Shown here: positions 1 through 6,734 of the stretch, in pieces
How positions within the stretch are numbered: the first letter of the stretch is position 1
Layout of the letters: each line of letters starts with the position of its first letter
Assembly: GCF_035285525.1 (NCBI RefSeq)
Contig: NZ_JAYKGW010000159.1
Location: forward strand, 1 to 6,734
Source of the DNA: Okeania sp.
GTDB taxonomy: Bacteria > Cyanobacteriota > Cyanobacteriia > Cyanobacteriales > Microcoleaceae
DNA: 6,734 nucleotides
Direction of reading: 5' to 3'
Position numbers and translations under genes: made by a program
Notes under the pieces: model-generated
What the model was told of the DNA's origin: nothing
Seen by the model: only the letters and a program-made list of their open reading frames with translations
Databases searched by the model: none

Positions 1-114
1 GGCATCGTGCTATTTTACCGGGCAGCTACCCACCGAGTATCTTCGCCACTGTAGCGTTTCACTTCCGAGTTCGGGATGGATCGGAGTGGTTCCACTACGT
101 CATAGACACCAGGA
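1..114 (-). rRNA. rrf: 5S ribosomal RNA, copy 1 (about 3 nt of its 3' end are cut off by the window start)
   Basis: The reverse complement reads TCCTGGTGTCTATGACGTAGTGGAACCACTCCGATCCATCCCGAACTCGGAAGTGAAACGCTACAGTGGCGAAGATACTCGGTGGGTAGCTGCCCGGTAAAATAGCACGATGCC. It has the bacterial 5S hallmark CCCGAACTCGGAAGTGAAAC, a cyanobacterial-type 5' end (TCCTGGTG) and the GGTAAAATAGC 3' region. It is identical to copy 2, where the helix-I partner CCAGG is visible. Confidence 0.9.
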
Positions 115-144
115 AAAGCTAATAATAGTTAGTTTATTATATTT

Positions 145-180
145 GCCTTTAACCTTTATAAGTTAGCAGGCGTTTTTTTT
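145..180 (+). terminator. Terminator-like hairpin plus T8 tract on the plus strand, lying between 5S copy 1 and its putative promoter
   Basis: GCCTTTAAC (145..153) pairs with GTTAGCAGGC (162..171), giving 9 pairs with one bulged C167 and one G-U pair, and an 8-nt loop. It is followed directly by G and T8 (173..180). The stem is AT-rich and weak, and no plus-strand gene is visible upstream of it. Confidence 0.3.
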
Positions 181-193
181 CCTTACATTTATT

Positions 194-222
194 ACTATAA
201 ATACCTTCTCTATAAATGTCAA
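194..222 (-). promoter_or_regulatory. Candidate sigma70-type promoter pointing at 5S copy 1
   Basis: The minus strand reads TTGACA (complement of 217..222), a 17-nt spacer, then TATAGT (complement of 194..199). The predicted start is near 185..188, about 70 nt upstream of the mature 5S 5' end at 114. The context is AT-rich, so a chance match is possible. Confidence 0.4.
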
Positions 223-252
223 CCCCCTAAGCAAAATTTTTTTTCTAAATAA

Positions 253-316
253 GGGAACAGGGAATAAGCAATGGACAATAGGCAATAGACAATAGGCAAT
301 AGACAATAGGCAATGG
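253..316. repeat. Heptanucleotide tandem array (STRR-like)
   Basis: GGGAACA GGGAATA A is followed by GCAATGG ACAATAG GCAATAG ACAATAG GCAATAG ACAATAG GCAATGG (268..316). That is seven units of RCAATRG, or 3.5 copies of a 14-mer. Confidence 0.85.
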
Positions 317-407
317 AAAGAAAGAATAATACCAATTAGCATGCATTAATGCTATACTTGAGCTACATTTCGACAGTAAAATAGTTACTGAGATTAAAAA
401 TTTGTTT

Positions 408-435
408 TTGACAATTCTTAGTCAATTCGTATAAA
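408..435 (+). promoter_or_regulatory. Candidate sigma70-type promoter for the kinase gene
   Basis: TTGACA (408..413), a 16-nt spacer, then TATAAA (430..435). If used, it gives a 5' leader of about 330 nt before the ATG at 776. This was the best -35/-10 pair I found in 230..775, but the region is AT-rich. Confidence 0.35.
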
Positions 436-561
436 CTTTTTCCAGTTTTTCTCTCCCCACACCGACCACACAAACCACACTTCTCCACCCAATTAAACAT
501 AGCATTCATGCATGAGAAATGGTATAAATGATTTCTGTCCGTTAATTTTAGGACTTATGCA

Positions 562-577
562 AAGAAACCCGGTTTTT
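562..577. repeat. Degenerate copy of the AGAAACC-N-GGTTTCT palindrome
   Basis: In AAGAAACC-C-GGTTTTT, the core AAACC (565..569) pairs with GGTTT (571..575). It has the same central C as the intragenic copy at 1825..1839. Confidence 0.6.
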
Positions 578-611
578 AGGATAAATCGTTGTTTTCAGCA
601 ATAGATGTCTA

Positions 612-630
612 CCAGAAACCAGGTTTCTGG
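612..630. repeat. Perfect 19-bp palindrome CCAGAAACC-A-GGTTTCTGG
   Basis: 612..620 is the exact reverse complement of 622..630. The same CCAGAAACC core occurs three times inside the CDS (1802..1810, 1823..1831, 1913..1921). Confidence 0.85.
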
Positions 631-775
631 GTTCACATGGCTTTAGTCCTGAATTTTTCTCCCTCTTGTTACCCCAGAATACTAACTTGAGAAACCTGAG
701 CCATCTAAAAAAAAGAAGTAAACTAGAAATATATATGGGCAAAAATTAGATTCTAATGATAAACAAACTGAGCCA

Positions 776-3700
776 ATGGGTAAAACAAAAACAATAAAAA
801 TAGCTAATTATCAAGCCCTGGAACTGATTTACGAAAGTGAGCGTACCGAAATATATCGGGGGCAGAATGTAGAGAATGGACAATCAGTTATTATCAAGTT
901 GATGCGTGATGAATATCCTTCTTTCAACAAATTGGTTCAGTTTAGAAATCAATATGCAATCACCCAAAATTTACAAGTAGAAGGTATCATCAAAACTTAT
1001 GGCCTGGTACGCTATAAAAACCGCTACGCCCTCATTATGGAAGATATAAGAGGGGTATCGTTAGACGAATATCAGCTTAGAGTATCTATAAATCTGTCAG
1101 AATTTCTTGATATTGCCATTCAACTTTCAGAAATTCTCCACCAACTCCATAATAACTCGATTATTCATAAAGATATTAAACCAGCAAATATCCTAATTGA
1201 TCCGGAAACTAAACAAGTCAAACTCATAGATTTTAGTATTTCGACTCTGTTACCAAAAGAAACTCAAACAGTTGAAACTCCCAAAGTATTAGAAGGAACT
1301 CCAGCTTATATATCTCCAGAACAAACAGGAAGGATGAATAGAGGAATTGACTATCGGAGTGATTTCTATTGTTTAGGAGTAACATTTTATGAATTATTAA
1401 GTGGAGGTTTACCTTTTAAGAGTAATGATGCTTTGGAACTAATTTATGCTCATATTGCCTTGTCCCCAATCCCTTTGAGAAATAGGGGGATATTAGAGGG
1501 AGAAATATGTCCGCAGCCCATATCAGATATGGTAATGAAACTGATGGCGAAAAATGCTGAAGACCGCTATCAGAGTGCTTTAGGATTGAAATATGACCTA
1601 GAAAAATGTCAGAGTGATTATAGAGAAAAGGGTGAAATAGAGTCGTTTGAATTAGGGGAACGAGATATTTGCGCTCGCTTTCTGATTCCGGAGAAATTAT
1701 ACGGACGGGAAGCAGAAATTAAAGCACTACTGGATGCTTTTGAACGAGTTAGTAATCCCCCCCAACCCCCCTTTGAAAGGGGGGAGTTACCGATTCCCAA
1801 CCCAGAAACCGGCTTTCCAGACCCAGAAACCCGGTTTCTTCGAGAAAGAACGGTAGCCAAAGGCAATCCCCCCCAACCCCCCTTTCAAAGGGGGGAGTTA
1901 CCGATTCCCAACCCAGAAACCGACTTTCTCACCCGTGAAATAGTAATGGTGGAGGGATTTTCTGGCATTGGCAAAACGGTTGTAATTAATGAGGTTCACA
2001 AACCAATAGTTAGACAACGGGGTTACTTTATCAAAGGAAAATTCGATCAATTTAATCGCAACATTCCTTTTAGTGCTTTTGTGCAAGCTTTTCGGAGCTT
2101 AATGGGGCAAATTATCAGCGAATCTGATGACGAGTTATCTACTTGGAAAGCAAAAATTCTGGAAACAGTCGGTACAAACGGACAAGTTTTAATAGATGTA
2201 ATCCCCGAACTAGAAAGAGTAATTGGCAAACAACCTCCGGTTCCGGAACTCTCAGGAAGTGCAGCCCAAAATCGCTTTAATCTCTTGTTTCAAAAATTTA
2301 TAGCTATCTTTGCCACCAAAGAACATCCCTTAGTCATATTTTTAGATGATTTACAATGGGTAGATTCTGCATCATTAAATTTAATGAAAGTGTTGATGGG
2401 AGATAATGAGATAGGTTATTTACTATTACTGGGAGCATATCGAGACAACGAAGTATTTCCCGCTCATCCTCTGATGTTAACTTTAGCAGATTTACAGAAA
2501 CAAAAGGTAGCTATTTCAACTATTACCCTCGCCCCCTTAGCTCAAAAACATATTAATCAGTTAGTAGCAGAAACTCTCAGTTGCAGTGTTAAGTTAGCTA
2601 TTCCTTTAACAGAACTAATTTATGGGAAAACCAAAGGGAACCCATTCTTTACCACCCAATTCTTAAAAGGATTATATGAAGATGAATTAATAGTATTTAA
2701 TTGGCATTTGGGATATTGGGAATCTGATTTGGTGAAGGTACAAGATGCAGCATTGACGGATGATGTGGTAGAATTTATGGCTGGGAGATTGCAAAAATTA
2801 CCGTCAAAAACCCAAGAAGTATTGAAGGTAGCAGCTTGTATTGGCAACGAATTTGATTTAGAAACATTGGCGATAGTGCGAGAAATTTCTTCAGAAGAAG
2901 CGGCAGCAGAAATATGGCGAGCGCTCCAGGAAAGGATTGTTTTACCAATCAGTGAAGCTTACAAATTTTTCCAAGGGGTGGTTGACTCCATTTCCATACA
3001 ACCAGAAATGATTGGTTATCGCTTTTTGCACGATCGCGTTCAACAAGCTGCTTATCAATTAATTCCAGATGCAGAAAAACAAATAGCTCATTATCATATC
3101 GGTAAGCGTCTTCTCTCTCGTCTTTCACTGGAGGAGCGAGAGAAATATCTGTTTGATATCGTTAATCATTTGAATATGGCGCTAGTTCTCATAGTGGATT
3201 CCAAGGAACGGGAACAATTGATGCAATTAAATCTGCAAGCTGGACGTAAAGCTAAGAATGCTTTAGCTTATCGAGCAGCGAGTGAATATTATGATACAGC
3301 TTGTCTTTTACTGAAAGATAGCAGTTGGCAAAACGATTATCAAAATCATTTAGCCGTTTATTCGGGAGCAGTGGAAACTGCTTTTTTATGTGGAGATTTC
3401 CCTCGCATGGAAGAGTTAGGAGAAATTGTACTTCAAGAAGCGCAAACATTTCTAGATTGTGTGAAAGTATATGAAATTAAAGTACAAGCAGCAATTGCTC
3501 AAAATCAACTTGATGCAGCTATTCAATTAGGTTTGCATTTTCTGAGAAATCTTGATATTCAACTTCCCGAACAAGTAACAAATTCGGAAATTGAGGCAGC
3601 TTTTGCTGAAAATGATGTTTTATTAGAAAAAATTGCTATCGAAGATGTGGTTAACTTCGAGCGCATGAGCGATTCCAATAAAGAGGCAGCAATACGGATG

Positions 3701-6334
3701 ATTACTATTGCTGGGTTAGCTATGTATGTTGCTAATCCAGAATTATTAATGTTAAGTGTAGCGCGACAAGTTAACCTCTGTTTGCAATATGGAAACACTT
3801 CTACTTCTGCTGATGCTTATGCTACCTACGGTCTGTTTCTTTGTGGCGAAATGGGAGAAATAGAAAAGGGGTATCAGTTTGGGGAACTTGCTATTGCAGT
3901 TCTGGAAAATCTGCAAACTATTGAAATTAAATCCTTAGTTTATGTTTTGTTTAATGGTTTTATTAGACATTGGAAATATCCTTGTCGAGATACTCTGCCA
4001 GATTTACAAAATGCCTACCACTGGGGTTTAGAAATGGGCGATCTCCAAAATGCTGCCCTCTCTGCTTATTGCTATTGTAGCCATCAATTTTTGTGTGGTG
4101 TAAATCTGGGAGATGTTCATAAAGAAATCGAACAGTACGCTCGTGCTGTGGAATCAATACAACAACTGGGAATCAAAGGTTGGCTCGATCCCTTGTTGGC
4201 ATTAACAGGAAAACTTATTAAACCCTCATCAACACCATTACTTTTATTATCCTCGATTACAGCAGAAAAAGAAACTATCGAAACTTTTAATCAAGACAGC
4301 GATCGTACAGGAATGTTTGTCTTTGCTTTTAGTAAAATGCTGTTAGCTTATTTATGGAATCAAACCGAGGAGGCGATCGCTGCTGCGAATATGGCTAGAG
4401 AATATCTTGATGGCATCACAGGTATGGCTTTCGTTTCCTGTTTCTACTTCTATGATACTGCTATTTTATTAAGCTCCCAACCAACTTCTCTTTCTTCTGA
4501 AGAGATAGATAAAATCGTCGATAATAAAAACAAACTACAAGATTTGTCTCAGTACGGTGCATCTAACTTACTTCATAAGTTTCAATTACTAGAAGCAGAG
4601 TATTATCGTTGGAATGGCGAGCATATTCTAGCGATGGAAATGTACGATCGCGCTATTGCTGGAGCCAAAGAAAATCATTACATTCAAGAAGAAGCCTTAG
4701 CAAATGAACTAGCAGCCAAATTTTATCTAGACTGGGATAAAGAAAAATTTGCCACACTTTATATGCAAGAAGCCTACTATTGTTATTCTCAATGGGGAGC
4801 CAAAGCCAAAGTAAAAGAGATAGAAAAACGCTATCCCAAACTTTTAGAACCAATTTTGCAAACCAACCTCTCCGCTGCCACAGCTAGCATTGCTCAAATT
4901 ACCAGTAATGATCGGACGCAAACAGCAACCGTTGCCAATATTTCCTCTATCATTGACTTTTCATCTTTATTAAAAGCTTCCCAAACTCTTTCCGGAGAAA
5001 TTGAACTCGATCGCTTACTCTCAACAGTAATGAAAATTATCATCGAAAATGCTGGAGCAACCAAAGGTGCATTATTATTAGTCGGAAAACAGGGATTAAC
5101 AGTAGAAGCGATCGCTAGTCGTACTGGAGTCAACAGTCAATTAACCATAGATTCTTTAAATCAATCTATTCCCCTCGAAGAAAATATTGACTTACCCGTA
5201 GGATTAGTTAACTTTGTCAGACGCACCGCAGAAACTGCAATTTTAGATGGGAAAACAGCCCAAGAACAATTTGCTGCCGATACTTATTTACTTCATTTTC
5301 ATCCCCAAAGTTTGCTGTGTATGCCTTTATTTGAACGAGGAAAATTAATCAGTATTCTCTATTTAGAAAATAGTTTGACCGCAGATGCTTTTACTGAAAA
5401 CAGGGTAAAAATTCTAGATACTTTGTGCGCTCAAGCAGCAATTTCCTTAGAAAATGCCAGATTATACCAACAAGCGCAAAAAGCACTCAAGGACTTGCAA
5501 CAGACTCAACTACAATTAGTACAACAGGAAAAAATGGCAACCTTGGGTAATTTGGTAGCAGGAGTTGCCCATGAAATTAATAATCCGATTGGGTTTATTA
5601 GAGGGAATATTGATGTAGCTCAAGACTATTTACAAGATTTACTTACTATACTAGCATTATATGCAGAAAATACCTCTCCACCAGAGTCAATTATGGCAGA
5701 GATAGAAGAATTAGAACAGGATTTTATTGCCGAAGATTTCCCGAAACTGATAACATCACTGGCAGAAGGATGTGACCGCATTCGCAATATTAGTACATCT
5801 TTGCGCACATTTTCACGGAGAGATACAACTACCAAAACAGAGTTTAATCTACATGATGGCATAGATAGCACTTTGTTAATTTTAAAATATCGTCTCAAAG
5901 CTAATCAAAACCGTCCCAGTATTGAGATTGTCAAAAATTACAGTCAGATACCGCTAGTGAAATGTTATGCAGGGCAACTAAATCAAGTATTTATGAATTT
6001 ATTGGCTAATGGGATTGATGCTTTAGAAGAAAGTAATAAAGGTAAAACTTTTACTGAGATAGAAAATAATCCCAATCGGATTACAATCAGAACGAAATTA
6101 AGCGCAGACAGCCAAAATGCCATAGTCGAAATTTCCGACAATGGAACGGGAATTCCAGAAGAAGTAAAAGAGAAGATATTTGAGCAAGGATTTACCACAA
6201 AAGAAGTCGGCAAAGGAACAGGTTTAGGAATGGCGATCGCTCATCAAATTATTACCGAGAAACATGGAGGTAAAATTATCTGCAATTCCAGAGTTGGCGA
6301 AGGTACAACTTTTACTATTATTATTCCAAAGTAA
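776..6334 (+). CDS. Multi-domain sensor multi-kinase (HstK-like dual kinase): Ser/Thr protein kinase + P-loop AAA_16/STAND-like NTPase + helical region + GAF + histidine kinase (HisKA/HATPase_c)
   Basis: The ORF is uninterrupted for 1852 codons, from ATG 776 to TAA 6332..6334. Kinase motifs: VIIK (K41), HKDIKPANIL (aa 131-140), DFS (aa 152-154), TPAYISPE (aa 175-182). NTPase motifs: LYGRE (aa 308-312), Walker A GFSGIGKT (aa 394-401), Walker B-like LVIFLDD (aa 519-525). The GAF-like region runs from DFSSLLKASQTLSGEIELDRLL to LENARLYQQ (aa ~1393-1566). Histidine-kinase motifs: H-box AGVAHEINNP (H1599), N-box NLLANGIDA, G1 DNGTGIPEE, G2 GKGTGLGMA. The N-terminus matches the usual start of this family just before the kinase domain. 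No clear Shine-Dalgarno sequence is present. Confidence 0.95.
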   Translation: MGKTKTIKIANYQALELIYESERTEIYRGQNVENGQSVIIKLMRDEYPSFNKLVQFRNQYAITQNLQVEGIIKTYGLVRYKNRYALIMEDIRGVSLDEYQLRVSINLSEFLDIAIQLSEILHQLHNNSIIHKDIKPANILIDPETKQVKLIDFSISTLLPKETQTVETPKVLEGTPAYISPEQTGRMNRGIDYRSDFYCLGVTFYELLSGGLPFKSNDALELIYAHIALSPIPLRNRGILEGEICPQPISDMVMKLMAKNAEDRYQSALGLKYDLEKCQSDYREKGEIESFELGERDICARFLIPEKLYGREAEIKALLDAFERVSNPPQPPFERGELPIPNPETGFPDPETRFLRERTVAKGNPPQPPFQRGELPIPNPETDFLTREIVMVEGFSGIGKTVVINEVHKPIVRQRGYFIKGKFDQFNRNIPFSAFVQAFRSLMGQIISESDDELSTWKAKILETVGTNGQVLIDVIPELERVIGKQPPVPELSGSAAQNRFNLLFQKFIAIFATKEHPLVIFLDDLQWVDSASLNLMKVLMGDNEIGYLLLLGAYRDNEVFPAHPLMLTLADLQKQKVAISTITLAPLAQKHINQLVAETLSCSVKLAIPLTELIYGKTKGNPFFTTQFLKGLYEDELIVFNWHLGYWESDLVKVQDAALTDDVVEFMAGRLQKLPSKTQEVLKVAACIGNEFDLETLAIVREISSEEAAAEIWRALQERIVLPISEAYKFFQGVVDSISIQPEMIGYRFLHDRVQQAAYQLIPDAEKQIAHYHIGKRLLSRLSLEEREKYLFDIVNHLNMALVLIVDSKEREQLMQLNLQAGRKAKNALAYRAASEYYDTACLLLKDSSWQNDYQNHLAVYSGAVETAFLCGDFPRMEELGEIVLQEAQTFLDCVKVYEIKVQAAIAQNQLDAAIQLGLHFLRNLDIQLPEQVTNSEIEAAFAENDVLLEKIAIEDVVNFERMSDSNKEAAIRMITIAGLAMYVANPELLMLSVARQVNLCLQYGNTSTSADAYATYGLFLCGEMGEIEKGYQFGELAIAVLENLQTIEIKSLVYVLFNGFIRHWKYPCRDTLPDLQNAYHWGLEMGDLQNAALSAYCYCSHQFLCGVNLGDVHKEIEQYARAVESIQQLGIKGWLDPLLALTGKLIKPSSTPLLLLSSITAEKETIETFNQDSDRTGMFVFAFSKMLLAYLWNQTEEAIAAANMAREYLDGITGMAFVSCFYFYDTAILLSSQPTSLSSEEIDKIVDNKNKLQDLSQYGASNLLHKFQLLEAEYYRWNGEHILAMEMYDRAIAGAKENHYIQEEALANELAAKFYLDWDKEKFATLYMQEAYYCYSQWGAKAKVKEIEKRYPKLLEPILQTNLSAATASIAQITSNDRTQTATVANISSIIDFSSLLKASQTLSGEIELDRLLSTVMKIIIENAGATKGALLLVGKQGLTVEAIASRTGVNSQLTIDSLNQSIPLEENIDLPVGLVNFVRRTAETAILDGKTAQEQFAADTYLLHFHPQSLLCMPLFERGKLISILYLENSLTADAFTENRVKILDTLCAQAAISLENARLYQQAQKALKDLQQTQLQLVQQEKMATLGNLVAGVAHEINNPIGFIRGNIDVAQDYLQDLLTILALYAENTSPPESIMAEIEELEQDFIAEDFPKLITSLAEGCDRIRNISTSLRTFSRRDTTTKTEFNLHDGIDSTLLILKYRLKANQNRPSIEIVKNYSQIPLVKCYAGQLNQVFMNLLANGIDALEESNKGKTFTEIENNPNRITIRTKLSADSQNAIVEISDNGTGIPEEVKEKIFEQGFTTKEVGKGTGLGMAIAHQIITEKHGGKIICNSRVGEGTTFTIIIPK
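806..1600 (+). other. Hanks-type Ser/Thr protein kinase domain (aa ~11-275)
   Basis: The catalytic loop is HKDIKPANIL. The Mg-binding motif is DFS rather than DFG. The activation-segment end is SPE rather than APE. The beta3 lysine lies in VIIK. The Gly-rich loop is degenerate (YESERTEIYRG). Confidence 0.85.
1754..1817 (+). repeat. 64-nt direct repeat, copy A, in frame inside the CDS (aa 327-347, NPPQPPFERGELPIPNPETGF)
   Basis: AATCCCCCCCAACCCCCCTTTGAAAGGGGGGAGTTACCGATTCCCAACCCAGAAACCGGCTTTC. It contains the 19-nt palindrome CCCCCCTTT-G-AAAGGGGGG (1766..1784). It is 62/64 identical to copy B. Confidence 0.9.
1865..1928 (+). repeat. 64-nt direct repeat, copy B, in frame inside the CDS (aa 364-384, NPPQPPFQRGELPIPNPETDF)
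   Basis: It is offset from copy A by exactly 111 nt (37 codons). The only mismatches are 1886 C (vs 1775 G) and 1923 A (vs 1812 G). Its palindrome CCCCCCTTT-C-AAAGGGGGG lies at 1877..1895. Confidence 0.9.
4373..4380. repeat. HIP1 octamer GCGATCGC
   Basis: Exact match to the highly iterated palindrome typical of cyanobacterial genomes. Confidence 0.8.
4952..5461 (+). other. GAF domain (aa ~1393-1562)
   Basis: The pattern is typical of GAF: L..SQ.LS.E..LD.LL..V...I.E..GA..G.L.L, running to P.SLLC.PL...GKLI.ILYLEN and ending before a coiled-coil linker into the H-box. Confidence 0.7.
5108..5115. repeat. HIP1 octamer GCGATCGC
   Basis: Exact match. Confidence 0.8.
5530..6331 (+). other. Histidine kinase core: HisKA dimerisation/phosphoacceptor plus HATPase_c
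   Basis: The H-box is EKMATLGNLVAGVAHEINNPIGFIRGN, with the phosphoacceptor His codon at 5570..5572. The N-box starts near 5996, the G1 Asp codon is at 6137..6139, and G2 (GKGTGLG) starts at 6209. Confidence 0.85.
6233..6240. repeat. HIP1 octamer GCGATCGC
   Basis: Exact match. Confidence 0.8.
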
Positions 6335-6383
6335 GGAAGAAGGAAGAAGGAAGAAGGAAGAAGGAAGAAGGAAGAAGGAAAAA
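6335..6383. repeat. Heptanucleotide tandem array (GGAAGAA)x6 plus GGAAAAA, starting at the first base after the stop codon
   Basis: There are six perfect GGAAGAA units (6335..6376) and one variant (6377..6383). The plus strand is purine-only from 6333 to 6386 (54 nt). Confidence 0.9.
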
Positions 6384-6536
6384 GGGTTATATCAAATCCG
6401 GTAGTATCGGTAGAATTCACTTTCTGTAGGGGTTTAGTCTCCAAACCCTTGCAAATTAGCAGTTTTCCCTCTTTTCTGATAGTATAACCTTATTCTCCAA
6501 CTTTTCGGGAACCGTAGCCGACGGATTTAATATTAC

Positions 6537-6557
6537 TGATAACTATTAACTATTAAC
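6537..6557. repeat. Short heptamer array TGATAAC TATTAAC TATTAAC
   Basis: Three consecutive 7-mers, two of them identical, lie immediately next to the terminator hairpin. Confidence 0.5.
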
Positions 6558-6559
6558 TG

Positions 6560-6601
6560 AAAAAACAAAGGTTCTCTCGTATCGTTAAGAGAACCTTTGT
6601 T
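6560..6601 (-). terminator. Intrinsic terminator downstream of 5S copy 2, probably bidirectional and shared with the convergent kinase gene
   Basis: A perfect 12-bp stem, CAAAGGTTCTCT (6566..6577) with AGAGAACCTTTG (6588..6599), encloses a 10-nt loop. On the minus strand the stem is followed by TTTTTT (complement of A6 at 6560..6565). On the plus strand it is followed by TTTATATTT. It starts about 10 nt after the 5S 3' end. Confidence 0.8.
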
Positions 6602-6610
6602 TATATTTAA

Positions 6611-6727
6611 CCTGGCATCGTGCTATTTTACCGGGCAGCTACCCACCGAGTATCTTCGCCACTGTAGCGTTTCACTTCCGAGTTCGGGATGGATCGGAGT
6701 GGTTCCACTACGTCATAGACACCAGGA
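6611..6727 (-). rRNA. rrf: 5S ribosomal RNA, copy 2 (complete, about 117 nt; ends uncertain by 1-2 nt)
   Basis: The sequence is identical to copy 1 and additionally shows the 3' CCAGG that pairs with the 5' CCTGG in helix I. A strong terminator follows it. Confidence 0.92.
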
Positions 6728-6734
6728 AAAGCTA

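What the first reader, a model, noticed from the sequence alone, without database searches (positions are those of the whole stretch)
1..6734. Two identical 5S rRNA genes in direct orientation bracket the kinase gene, and the identity runs into both window edges
Seen: 1..121 is identical to 6614..6734 (121/121), a period of 6613 nt. Each repeat covers a minus-strand 5S gene plus 7 nt upstream of its mature 5' end. The true extent of the duplication cannot be seen because both copies touch a window edge. Established: in cyanobacteria 5S is normally the last gene of a 16S-23S-5S operon. Here the 6.5 kb between the copies holds only AT-rich spacer and one protein gene, with nothing 23S-like. Inference: there are three possibilities. 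(a) The 5S gene has genuinely been duplicated, trapping a 6.6-kb kinase cassette between direct repeats; homologous recombination could then delete it, amplify it or release it as a 6613-bp circle. (b) This is part of a tandem amplification. (c) It is an assembly artefact, either a contig ending in a collapsed repeat or a circularised contig with overlapping ends.
Basis: partly seen in the sequence, partly recalled or inferred. Interest (0 to 1): 0.65.

Follow-up and report, generated by a model that had tools for sequence, protein, structure and literature searches.

The report
Duplicated stand-alone 5S gene breaks contig
The window is one whole assembly contig that starts and ends inside the same collapsed 133-base repeat, a free-standing 5S rRNA gene that this Okeania/Trichodesmium-like cyanobacterium has at least twice, most likely once on each side of a large kinase gene; this is real but fairly ordinary.

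Summary
Window 1-121 equals 6614-6734, and both ends are minus-strand 5S rRNA.

The window is a complete contig (C159) of a draft genome or MAG assembled with k=127. Another contig (C154, the sufR-sufBCDS side) shares C159's first 127 bases. C159's end overlaps that start by 121 bases, which is what a 133-nt collapsed repeat gives (2x127-133). The edge-to-edge identity therefore marks where the assembler broke. It does not measure how long the duplication is.

The 5S is not the tail of an rrn operon. It belongs to a roughly 300-nt module with its own promoter (TTGACA-17-TATAGT), the 5S gene and a hairpin terminator. All 12 genus genomes searched and 14 Okeania/Dapis/Trichodesmium-clade species representatives (the two sets overlap) carry this module, once each outside G000 and always next to sufR. 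In T. erythraeum IMS101 it is the only intact 5S gene.

This genome has two sister variants of the module's upstream region, so it has at least two copies.

Interest is modest.

The parts
1..113 (-). 5S rRNA gene with its last 4 nt at the 3' end cut off by the contig start (collapsed repeat copy)
   Evidence: Rfam RF00001, 61.5 bits, model positions 1-116, 3'-truncated. Identical to C154:1-113 and to window 6614-6726.
1..127 (.). Graph vertex V: a 127-mer shared exactly with the start of contig C154. The two contigs diverge at base 128.
   Evidence: The longest common prefix of C159(+) and C154(+) is exactly 127. All 44 shared contig termini in the assembly are exactly 127 nt.
114..245 (-). 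Conserved upstream region of the free-standing 5S unit (variant a), with -35 TTGACA at 222-217, -10 TATAGT at 199-194 and a leader of about 74 nt
   Evidence: Promoter scan gives 11 of 12 matches. The region is 93% identical to C154:114-240 over 128 aligned nt (alignment). It is conserved at 85-96% in every genome of the genus. The -35 and -10 boxes are (near-)invariant in the 13 other species compared, while the leader varies.
246..775 (.). AT-rich spacer made of dispersed repeats: a heptamer array at 252-321 and a MITE-like element at about 422-534
   Evidence: Direct repeat family D2. More than 25 genomic copies of 422-534 at 83-91% identity, and several copies of 205-404.
776..6334 (+). 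1852-aa multidomain sensor kinase gene: Ser/Thr kinase, AAA_16 NTPase, GAF, HisKA and HATPase_c. It is a lineage-specific paralogue of a large family.
   Evidence: ORF list and Pfam scan. Best match in genus representatives is 79-80% nt, and those matches are paralogues in tandem arrays. Best match in metagenomes is 60% aa.
6335..6383 (.). (GGAAGAA)n heptamer array directly after the stop codon
   Evidence: Sequence. Its 20-mers occur 83-89 times in the genome.
6563..6602 (-). Intrinsic terminator of the right-hand 5S unit: a 16-bp stem followed by a T-run
   Evidence: Terminator scan. Window 6560-6734, the hairpin plus 5S, is 95-99% conserved in 8 relatives, and everything beyond 6560 is unrelated between genomes.
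6610..6726 (-). Complete 5S rRNA gene
   Evidence: Rfam RF00001, 73.8 bits, model positions 1-120. The fold is kept, with compensatory changes, across orthologues.
6608..6734 (.). Graph vertex W, the last 127-mer of the contig. W and V together define an inferred 133-nt exact repeat (6608-6734 plus the 6 nt equal to 122-127).
   Evidence: The suffix of C159 dovetails with the prefixes of C159 and C154 by 121 nt, which equals 2x127-133. Sub-k dovetails of this kind are common in the assembly.

Best explanation
Shown: the window is one complete contig of a k=127 de Bruijn assembly. It begins at the last 127-mer and ends at the first 127-mer of a collapsed repeat. By graph logic that repeat is 133 nt and exact (the 5S gene plus 2 nt downstream and 14 nt upstream), so the two ends overlap by 2x127-133 = 121 nt. 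The repeat is the core of a free-standing 5S rRNA transcription unit of about 300 nt (sigma-70-type promoter, leader of about 74 nt, 5S, hairpin terminator). This unit is conserved and single-copy next to sufR throughout the Trichodesmium/Okeania/Dapis clade. In T. erythraeum IMS101 it is the only intact 5S gene.

Shown: this genome has two different, sister upstream variants of the unit. Variant a leads into the kinase spacer on C159, and variant b leads into sufR-sufBCDS on C154. That means at least two genomic copies, a duplication specific to this lineage.

Inferred: the only single-pass path through the two-in/two-out junction is X - 5S - (promoter a, spacer, kinase gene, terminator) - 5S - (promoter b) - sufR. 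On this reading two identical 5S genes sit in direct orientation on either side of a 6.5-kb kinase segment, inside the hypervariable region that lies 3' of the 5S unit in every relative. Direct repeats of this size (133 nt exact, about 300 nt at 93% or more) could support RecA-mediated deletion or amplification of the segment. That last point is inference only.
For: Window = C159:1-6734, the whole contig; the smallest contig in the file is 2660 nt, so short unitigs were discarded. All 44 shared contig termini are exactly 127 nt. C159 and C154 share a 127-nt prefix, and C159's suffix dovetails both prefixes by 121 nt. C154:1-241 is about 96% identical to C159:1-241 and unrelated after that. A near-consensus promoter lies at 222-194 and a terminator at 6602-6563 on the 5S strand. 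The module is conserved at 85-96% in all 11 other genus genomes, with one full copy each, and its upstream side is syntenic with C154 in all 8 loci examined. C154's neighbours are sufR and sufB/C/D/S. The hairpin plus 5S is 95-99% conserved, while everything beyond the hairpin differs in every genome. The module's terminator/5S junction occurs exactly once in each of 14 species representatives. Variants a and b share derived states absent from the 13 other species whose upstream region could be compared, so they are sister paralogues. IMS101 has two 23S genes but only one Rfam 5S, the free-standing one. The C159 interior has no exact repeat longer than 30 nt elsewhere in the genome, so an internal chimeric join at k=127 is not expected. 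MITE-like repeats and kinase paralogues shared with many other contigs tie C159 to this genome.
Against: No read, mate-pair or long contig spans either junction. No other assembly encodes this kinase. The second in-edge X is inferred and was not seen: the bin holds no second copy of the terminator/5S 3' junction. Copy number and the identity of the sequence after 6734 are therefore unknown. Variants a and b could in principle belong to two closely related strains binned together, although contamination is 0.06%. The kinase gene is not next to the 5S unit in any relative, so synteny cannot confirm the arrangement.
Confidence: 0.68

Rival explanations
1. There are three or more copies of the 5S module, or the two upstream variants come from different co-assembled strains. 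C159 would still be flanked by 5S on both sides, but its right-hand copy would not continue into C154. The kinase segment would then lie at another locus or in another strain.
For: Contigs under about 2.6 kb and unbinned contigs are missing, so further in-edges and out-edges of the repeat could exist. In 16 of the 44 contig pairs that share a terminus, the sequences run in parallel at 80-97% identity over the next 120 nt, so paralogous or allelic branches are common in this assembly. The kinase is not near the 5S unit in any relative.
Against: C159 and C154 both start exactly at the same vertex and diverge at base 128. A third out-edge would have to diverge at that very base as well. Contamination is 0.06%. 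Variants a and b are sister sequences. The region 3' of the unit is hypervariable in all relatives, so a novel gene there is unsurprising.
Confidence: 0.15
2. Tandem amplification: the unit [5S - promoter a - spacer - kinase - terminator] is present two or more times head to tail between X and C154, and the assembler collapsed the copies into one contig.
For: The graph (C159 starts and ends at the same repeat) is equally compatible with any number of passes through C159. Relatives hold tandem arrays of kinase paralogues, for example G002:C77 and G007:C227.
Against: Those arrays in relatives consist of diverged (76-80%) genes with short spacers (about 117 nt between successive genes in G002:C77) that leave no room for the ~300-nt 5S module. 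Nothing suggests excess depth, because no depth information is available. Identical 6.6-kb tandem copies are unstable.
Confidence: 0.07
3. A 6613-bp circle: C159 closes on itself through one 5S gene, either as an excised recombination product or as a small episome, while the chromosome carries X-5S-sufR only.
For: The contig's end overlaps its own start by 121 nt, and the path W->V->C159 exists in the graph. In all relatives the chromosomal arrangement is 5S-sufR without the kinase.
Against: The overlap is 121 and not k=127, so the assembler did not emit a closed loop, and the same vertex also leads to C154. The only gene is a sensor kinase; there is no replication, partition or mobilisation gene. 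There is no plasmid match. The spacers are full of this genome's own dispersed repeats. A circle that cannot replicate would not reach assembly depth.
Confidence: 0.06

Closest known systems
Repeat-collapsed contig ends in de Bruijn graph assemblies (rRNA genes as classic contig breakers)
   Same: The contig starts and ends on k-mers of a repeat longer than k. Neighbouring contigs share exactly k=127 nt, and the short repeat unitig itself was filtered out.
   Different: The repeat here is not the usual multi-kb rrn operon. It is a 133-nt exact core of a small stand-alone 5S unit, and the same contig touches it at both ends.
Orphan or extra 5S rRNA genes outside rrn operons in other bacteria (for example the additional 5S gene reported for Francisella genomes; the paper surfaced but I did not read it, so this rests on my own knowledge)
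   Same: A 5S gene that is not preceded by 23S and has its own promoter and terminator.
   Different: Here the free-standing gene is conserved across a whole cyanobacterial clade at a fixed locus next to sufR. Meanwhile rrn-linked 5S copies are truncated: C39 in this genome and both rrn operons in IMS101. In IMS101 it is the only intact 5S. I found no paper describing this.
Canonical cyanobacterial 16S-23S-5S operon
   Same: The same RNA family. The genome also has a canonical 23S-linked 5S on C38, 79% identical to the free-standing one.
   Different: No 23S lies upstream of either window copy. In IMS101 the unit lies more than 2 Mb from both 23S genes.
HstK-type dual Ser/Thr-His kinases of filamentous cyanobacteria (family name from my own knowledge)
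   Same: Ser/Thr kinase domain at the N-terminus, GAF + HisKA + HATPase_c at the C-terminus, and an AAA_16 NTPase in between. The family is hugely expanded, with 461 relatives confirmed in metagenomes.
   Different: This copy has no orthologue above 80% nt in 11 other genomes of the genus. It also carries two in-frame copies of a dispersed 64-nt element.

Membership tests
5S rRNA (Rfam RF00001) | Covariance-model score above the gathering threshold (38 bits) over the full model | tested here: met
   73.8 bits over model positions 1-120 at 6610-6726. 61.5 bits at 1-113, cut at the 3' end by the contig start.
5S rRNA (Rfam RF00001) | Three-helix-domain fold kept in orthologues, with compensatory changes | tested here: met
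   RNAalifold on 8 distinct free-standing 5S sequences plus the canonical C38 copy predicted 38 pairs, 8 of which show double-sided changes that keep the pair.
Canonical rrn operon (16S-23S-5S) | 23S rRNA immediately upstream of the 5S on the same strand | tested here: not met
   No LSU hit in the window. Upstream of 5S are a promoter-like site, a spacer and a divergent kinase gene. In closed IMS101 the orthologous 5S is more than 2 Mb from both 23S genes.
Free-standing 5S transcription unit of the Trichodesmium/Okeania/Dapis clade (defined here) | Conserved promoter boxes, 5S and hairpin terminator forming a module of about 300 nt | tested here: met
   The left copy has the promoter region at 114-245 and the right copy has the terminator at 6560-6609. 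These are 86-99% identical to the module in the eight relative loci compared and in 13 of the 14 species representatives (the 14th contig is cut off).
Free-standing 5S transcription unit of the Trichodesmium/Okeania/Dapis clade (defined here) | Transcription actually starts at the predicted promoter | not testable with these tools
The IMS101 primary-transcriptome paper does not mention 5S, and its supplements are not held.
De Bruijn repeat-collapsed contig end | Contig termini shared with other contigs by exactly k, and sub-k dovetails explained by short filtered repeat unitigs | tested here: met
   44 of 44 shared termini are 127 nt. C159 and C154 share a 127-nt prefix. The 121-nt dovetail equals 2x127-133. 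The smallest contig is 2660 nt.
Circular contig or plasmid with terminal overlap | Terminal overlap equal to the assembler's k, with no other contig leaving the same vertex | tested here: not met
   The overlap is 121 and not 127, and C154 leaves from the same vertex.
Circular contig or plasmid with terminal overlap | Replication or mobilisation genes, or similarity to known plasmids | tested here: not met
   The only long ORF (>=80 aa) with a domain match is the sensor kinase; the other two (82 and 90 aa) lie inside it on the opposite strand. The plasmid collection gives only two short paralogue hits, at 78% and 87% identity.
Tandem amplification | Read depth of the unit at least twice that of the flanks, or long reads with repeated units | not testable with these tools
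Contig names and coverage values are not provided.
Genuine two-copy direct repeat bracketing the kinase segment | Two distinct flanking contexts on at least one side of the repeat within one genome | tested here: met
   Upstream variants a (C159) and b (C154) differ at 8 positions between 128 and 241, and their continuations are unrelated. Bin contamination is 0.06%.
Genuine two-copy direct repeat bracketing the kinase segment | Physical linkage: kinase 3' end - 5S - C154, and X - 5S - kinase 5' spacer | not testable with these tools
   No reads are available, no alternative assembly exists, and X is absent from the bin.

The most novel reading that the evidence does not exclude
In the Trichodesmium/Okeania/Dapis clade the 5S rRNA gene has been uncoupled from the rrn operon. 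A self-contained 5S unit next to sufR has become the main 5S source, and in IMS101 the only one, while 23S-linked copies decay. In this genome the unit has been copied, and the two copies now form a recombination-competent pair of direct repeats. That pair could delete, amplify or circularise a 6.5-kb sensor-kinase cassette, which would be a way for highly conserved rRNA genes to act as portable homology for shuffling accessory genes.
Probability: 0.12. Interest if true: 0.55.

Novelty: new member of a known kind. Interest (0 to 1): 0.3.

Why it matters
This locus warns against reading contig-edge identity as biology. The 121-nt figure follows from k=127 and a 133-nt repeat, and says nothing about how far the duplication extends.

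The biological interest lies in the module itself. An entire clade of ecologically important marine cyanobacteria transcribes 5S rRNA from a stand-alone unit, and some members have lost the operon-linked copies. This raises the question of how 5S output is kept in step with 16S and 23S.

The lineage-specific second copy in this genome would change 5S dosage. It would also create direct repeats around an accessory kinase gene, but this is unproven and of modest general interest.

Tried and rejected
No depth, mate-pair or junction evidence could be obtained, and read laying was not attempted.

2. Other assemblies of the same locus: an exact-protein look-up of the kinase found nothing. A 40-mer from the left spacer has no match in JGI metagenome contigs. 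A protein-guided metagenome scan gave only paralogues at 60% aa or less.

3. Synteny: I looked for the kinase orthologue in 11 other genomes of the genus to see whether 5S flanks it there. Only 76-80% paralogues exist, so synteny cannot decide.

4. Missing in-edge X: I searched the genome for a second terminator/5S 3' junction and found none. Contig C116, whose homologue lies 2-5 kb beyond the 5S in relatives, ends in dispersed short repeats. This fits X being one or more unitigs under 2.6 kb that were discarded.

5. Chimeric contig: rejected. The longest match at 95% identity or more between the C159 interior and any other contig is 30 nt.

6. Import of one copy from another species: rejected. 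Variants a and b share derived states not seen in 13 other species.

7. Plasmid: rejected.

8. Literature: I found no paper on an unlinked 5S in Trichodesmium or Okeania in the held library. The TSS supplements of Pfreundt et al. 2014 are not held.

9. The strain-bubble test was uninformative. Parallel near-identical branches are common in this assembly and fit paralogous repeats as well as strain variants.

Full report
**1. The observation**

The repeat finder reports window 1-121 and 6614-6734 as 100% identical, 6613 nt apart. Rfam places 5S rRNA on the minus strand at 6610-6726 (73.8 bits, full model). It places a second copy at 1-113 (61.5 bits) that lacks its last 4 nt only because the sequence starts there. 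No other RNA family is found. The only long ORF is 776-6334 on the plus strand, encoding 1852 aa, with Pkinase, AAA_16, GAF, HisKA and HATPase_c domains.

**2. What the edges mean**

The window is the whole of contig C159 in a 260-contig, 6.5-Mb genome with 97% completeness and 0.06% contamination. The shortest contig in the file is 2660 nt.

I compared all contig termini. Every one of the 44 pairs that share a terminus shares exactly 127 nt, which is the signature of a de Bruijn assembly with k=127. C159 and C154 share their first 127 nt and differ at base 128. C159's last bases dovetail with the starts of C159 and C154 by only 121 nt.

In a unitig graph this has a simple reading:
- C159 and C154 both leave vertex V (window 1-127).
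- C159 ends at vertex W (6608-6734).
- W and V are the first and last 127-mers of a 133-nt repeat unitig, which is too short to survive length filtering.
- 2x127-133 = 121.

The 121-nt identity is therefore a consequence of k. The exact repeat is inferred to be 133 nt: the 5S gene plus 2 nt downstream and 14 nt upstream.

The interior of C159 has no match at 95% identity or more to any other contig that is longer than 30 nt, so an internal mis-join is not expected.

**3. What the 5S is**

Neither copy is preceded by 23S. Upstream of the left copy, on the 5S strand, lies TTGACA-17-TATAGT at 222-194, an 11-of-12 match. Directly after the right copy lies a 16-bp-stem hairpin with a T-run at 6602-6563.

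C154 carries the same upstream block. C154:1-241 is about 96% identical to C159:1-241, and the upstream part alone (114-240) is 93% identical; beyond that point the two are unrelated.

The block of terminator, 5S and about 130 nt upstream recurs at 85-96% identity in all 11 other genomes of the genus and in some sister genera, with one full-length copy per genome. In the eight loci I fetched:
- The upstream side is always syntenic with C154, whose genes are sufR and sufB, sufC, sufD, sufS.
- Conservation on the other side stops abruptly after the hairpin, at window 6560.
- The homologue of contig C116 follows 2-5 kb further on, after DNA that differs in every genome.

An exact scan of species-representative genomes found the terminator/5S junction once each in 14 records named Okeania, Dapis, Trichodesmium (including T. 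erythraeum IMS101) and unnamed Microcoleaceae.

Across these species the -35 and -10 boxes are (near-)invariant while the leader between them and the 5S varies. The 5S fold is kept with compensatory changes.

In the closed IMS101 genome there are two 23S genes but only one Rfam 5S. That 5S is the free-standing one, more than 2 Mb from either 23S. The sequence downstream of 23S there holds only a truncated 5S 5' half, which Rfam does not detect even at E<=1.

In the window's own genome one rrn 3' end (C38) has an intact canonical 5S that is 79% identical to the free-standing one. The other (C39) has a 5'-deleted remnant.

So this is a functional-looking, clade-wide, autonomous 5S gene and not an operon tail. 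I found no paper that describes it.

**4. How many copies, and where**

Two different upstream contexts leave the collapsed repeat: variant a on C159 and variant b on C154. They differ at 8 positions between 128 and 241, six of them in one cluster. They also share derived states absent from the 13 other species compared, for example GTTAGCAGGCGTTTTTTTT and a shared deletion.

They are therefore sister paralogues. The module was duplicated in this lineage, whereas it is single-copy in every relative examined.

With two exits (C159, C154) and two entries (C159, X), the only path that uses each contig once is X - 5S - a - spacer - kinase - terminator - 5S - b - sufR. It places the kinase gene in exactly the hypervariable zone that lies 3' of the 5S unit in all relatives.

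The kinase itself is a lineage-specific paralogue. The best genus matches are 79-80% nt and sit in tandem kinase arrays elsewhere. The best public metagenome match is 60% aa.

**5. What remains open**

No independent assembly of this locus exists in the collections. I therefore cannot exclude the following:
- A third module copy or a second strain, with C159's right end leading somewhere other than C154. Parallel near-identical branches are common in this assembly.
- Two or more tandem passes through C159.
- A 6613-bp circle. This is unlikely, because the overlap is not k, the same vertex also leads to C154, the only gene is a sensor kinase, there is no plasmid similarity, and the spacers are built from this genome's own dispersed repeats.

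My odds are about 0.68 for the bracketing arrangement, 0.15 for a more complex or other-strain context, 0.07 for amplification and 0.06 for a circle.

**6. Comparison and verdict**

The edge identity is a textbook repeat-collapsed contig end. The gene is a member of the 5S family (membership features met) but not of a canonical rrn operon (defining feature tested and not met).

Extra or orphan 5S genes are known in other bacteria. What is specific here is the clade-wide conserved stand-alone unit beside sufR, together with decay of the operon-linked copies, and a lineage-specific second copy in this genome.

Recombination between the two copies (excision, deletion or amplification of the kinase cassette) is plausible given 133 nt of exact identity and about 300 nt of near-identity. 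It is entirely inferred.

I rate the finding as a new member of a known kind and of modest interest (0.3). The decisive tests are read mapping, long reads or PCR across the two junctions.

Noticed in passing
G005 (T. erythraeum IMS101) C1:3141995-3142100 and C1:4598400-4598530; G000 C39 right end and C38:14941-15057: Operon-linked 5S genes are decaying in this clade. IMS101 has only a truncated 5S 5' half after one 23S and no detectable 5S after either 23S. In G000 one rrn end (C39) carries a 5'-deleted remnant, while the other (C38) keeps an intact 5S that is 79% identical to the free-standing one. The free-standing unit is the sole intact 5S in IMS101.
   Followed up: partly
window 1754-1817 and 1865-1928: Two copies (97% identical) of a 64-nt G/C-run palindromic element lie in frame inside the kinase ORF, between the kinase and AAA_16 domains. 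Each encodes NPPQPPF(E/Q)RGELPIPNPET. The first 35 nt or so of the element is dispersed in the genome (61 hits on 41 contigs), and paralogous kinase genes on C206 and C207 also carry it.
   Followed up: partly
window 6335-6383: A (GGAAGAA)n heptamer array starts right after the kinase stop codon. Its 20-mers occur 83-89 times in the genome.
   Followed up: no
window 205-404 and 422-534: The 5S-kinase spacer consists of dispersed repeats. A MITE-like element of about 110 nt at 422-534 has more than 25 copies at 83-91% identity on other contigs. Window 205-404 has several copies at 73-79%, and a heptamer array lies at 252-321.
   Followed up: no
C154 (L010) 241-396: Compared with all relatives, C154 has about 156 extra nt between the end of the 5S promoter block and the sufR-side synteny. 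It looks like a local tandem duplication of a unit of about 100 nt. The insertion starts at the same point (about 241-245) where C159 and C154 cease to be alike.
   Followed up: no
G007:C227:13311-32223 and G002:C77:220-16897: Relatives (Dapis strains) carry head-to-tail arrays of three to five 5.6-kb kinase paralogues that are 76-80% identical to the window's gene. In G007 the array lies on the same contig as the free-standing 5S unit, about 40-60 kb away.
   Followed up: no
Its G000-specific sequence (GTTAGCAGGCGTTTTTTTT) is one of the derived states shared by variants a and b.
   Followed up: no
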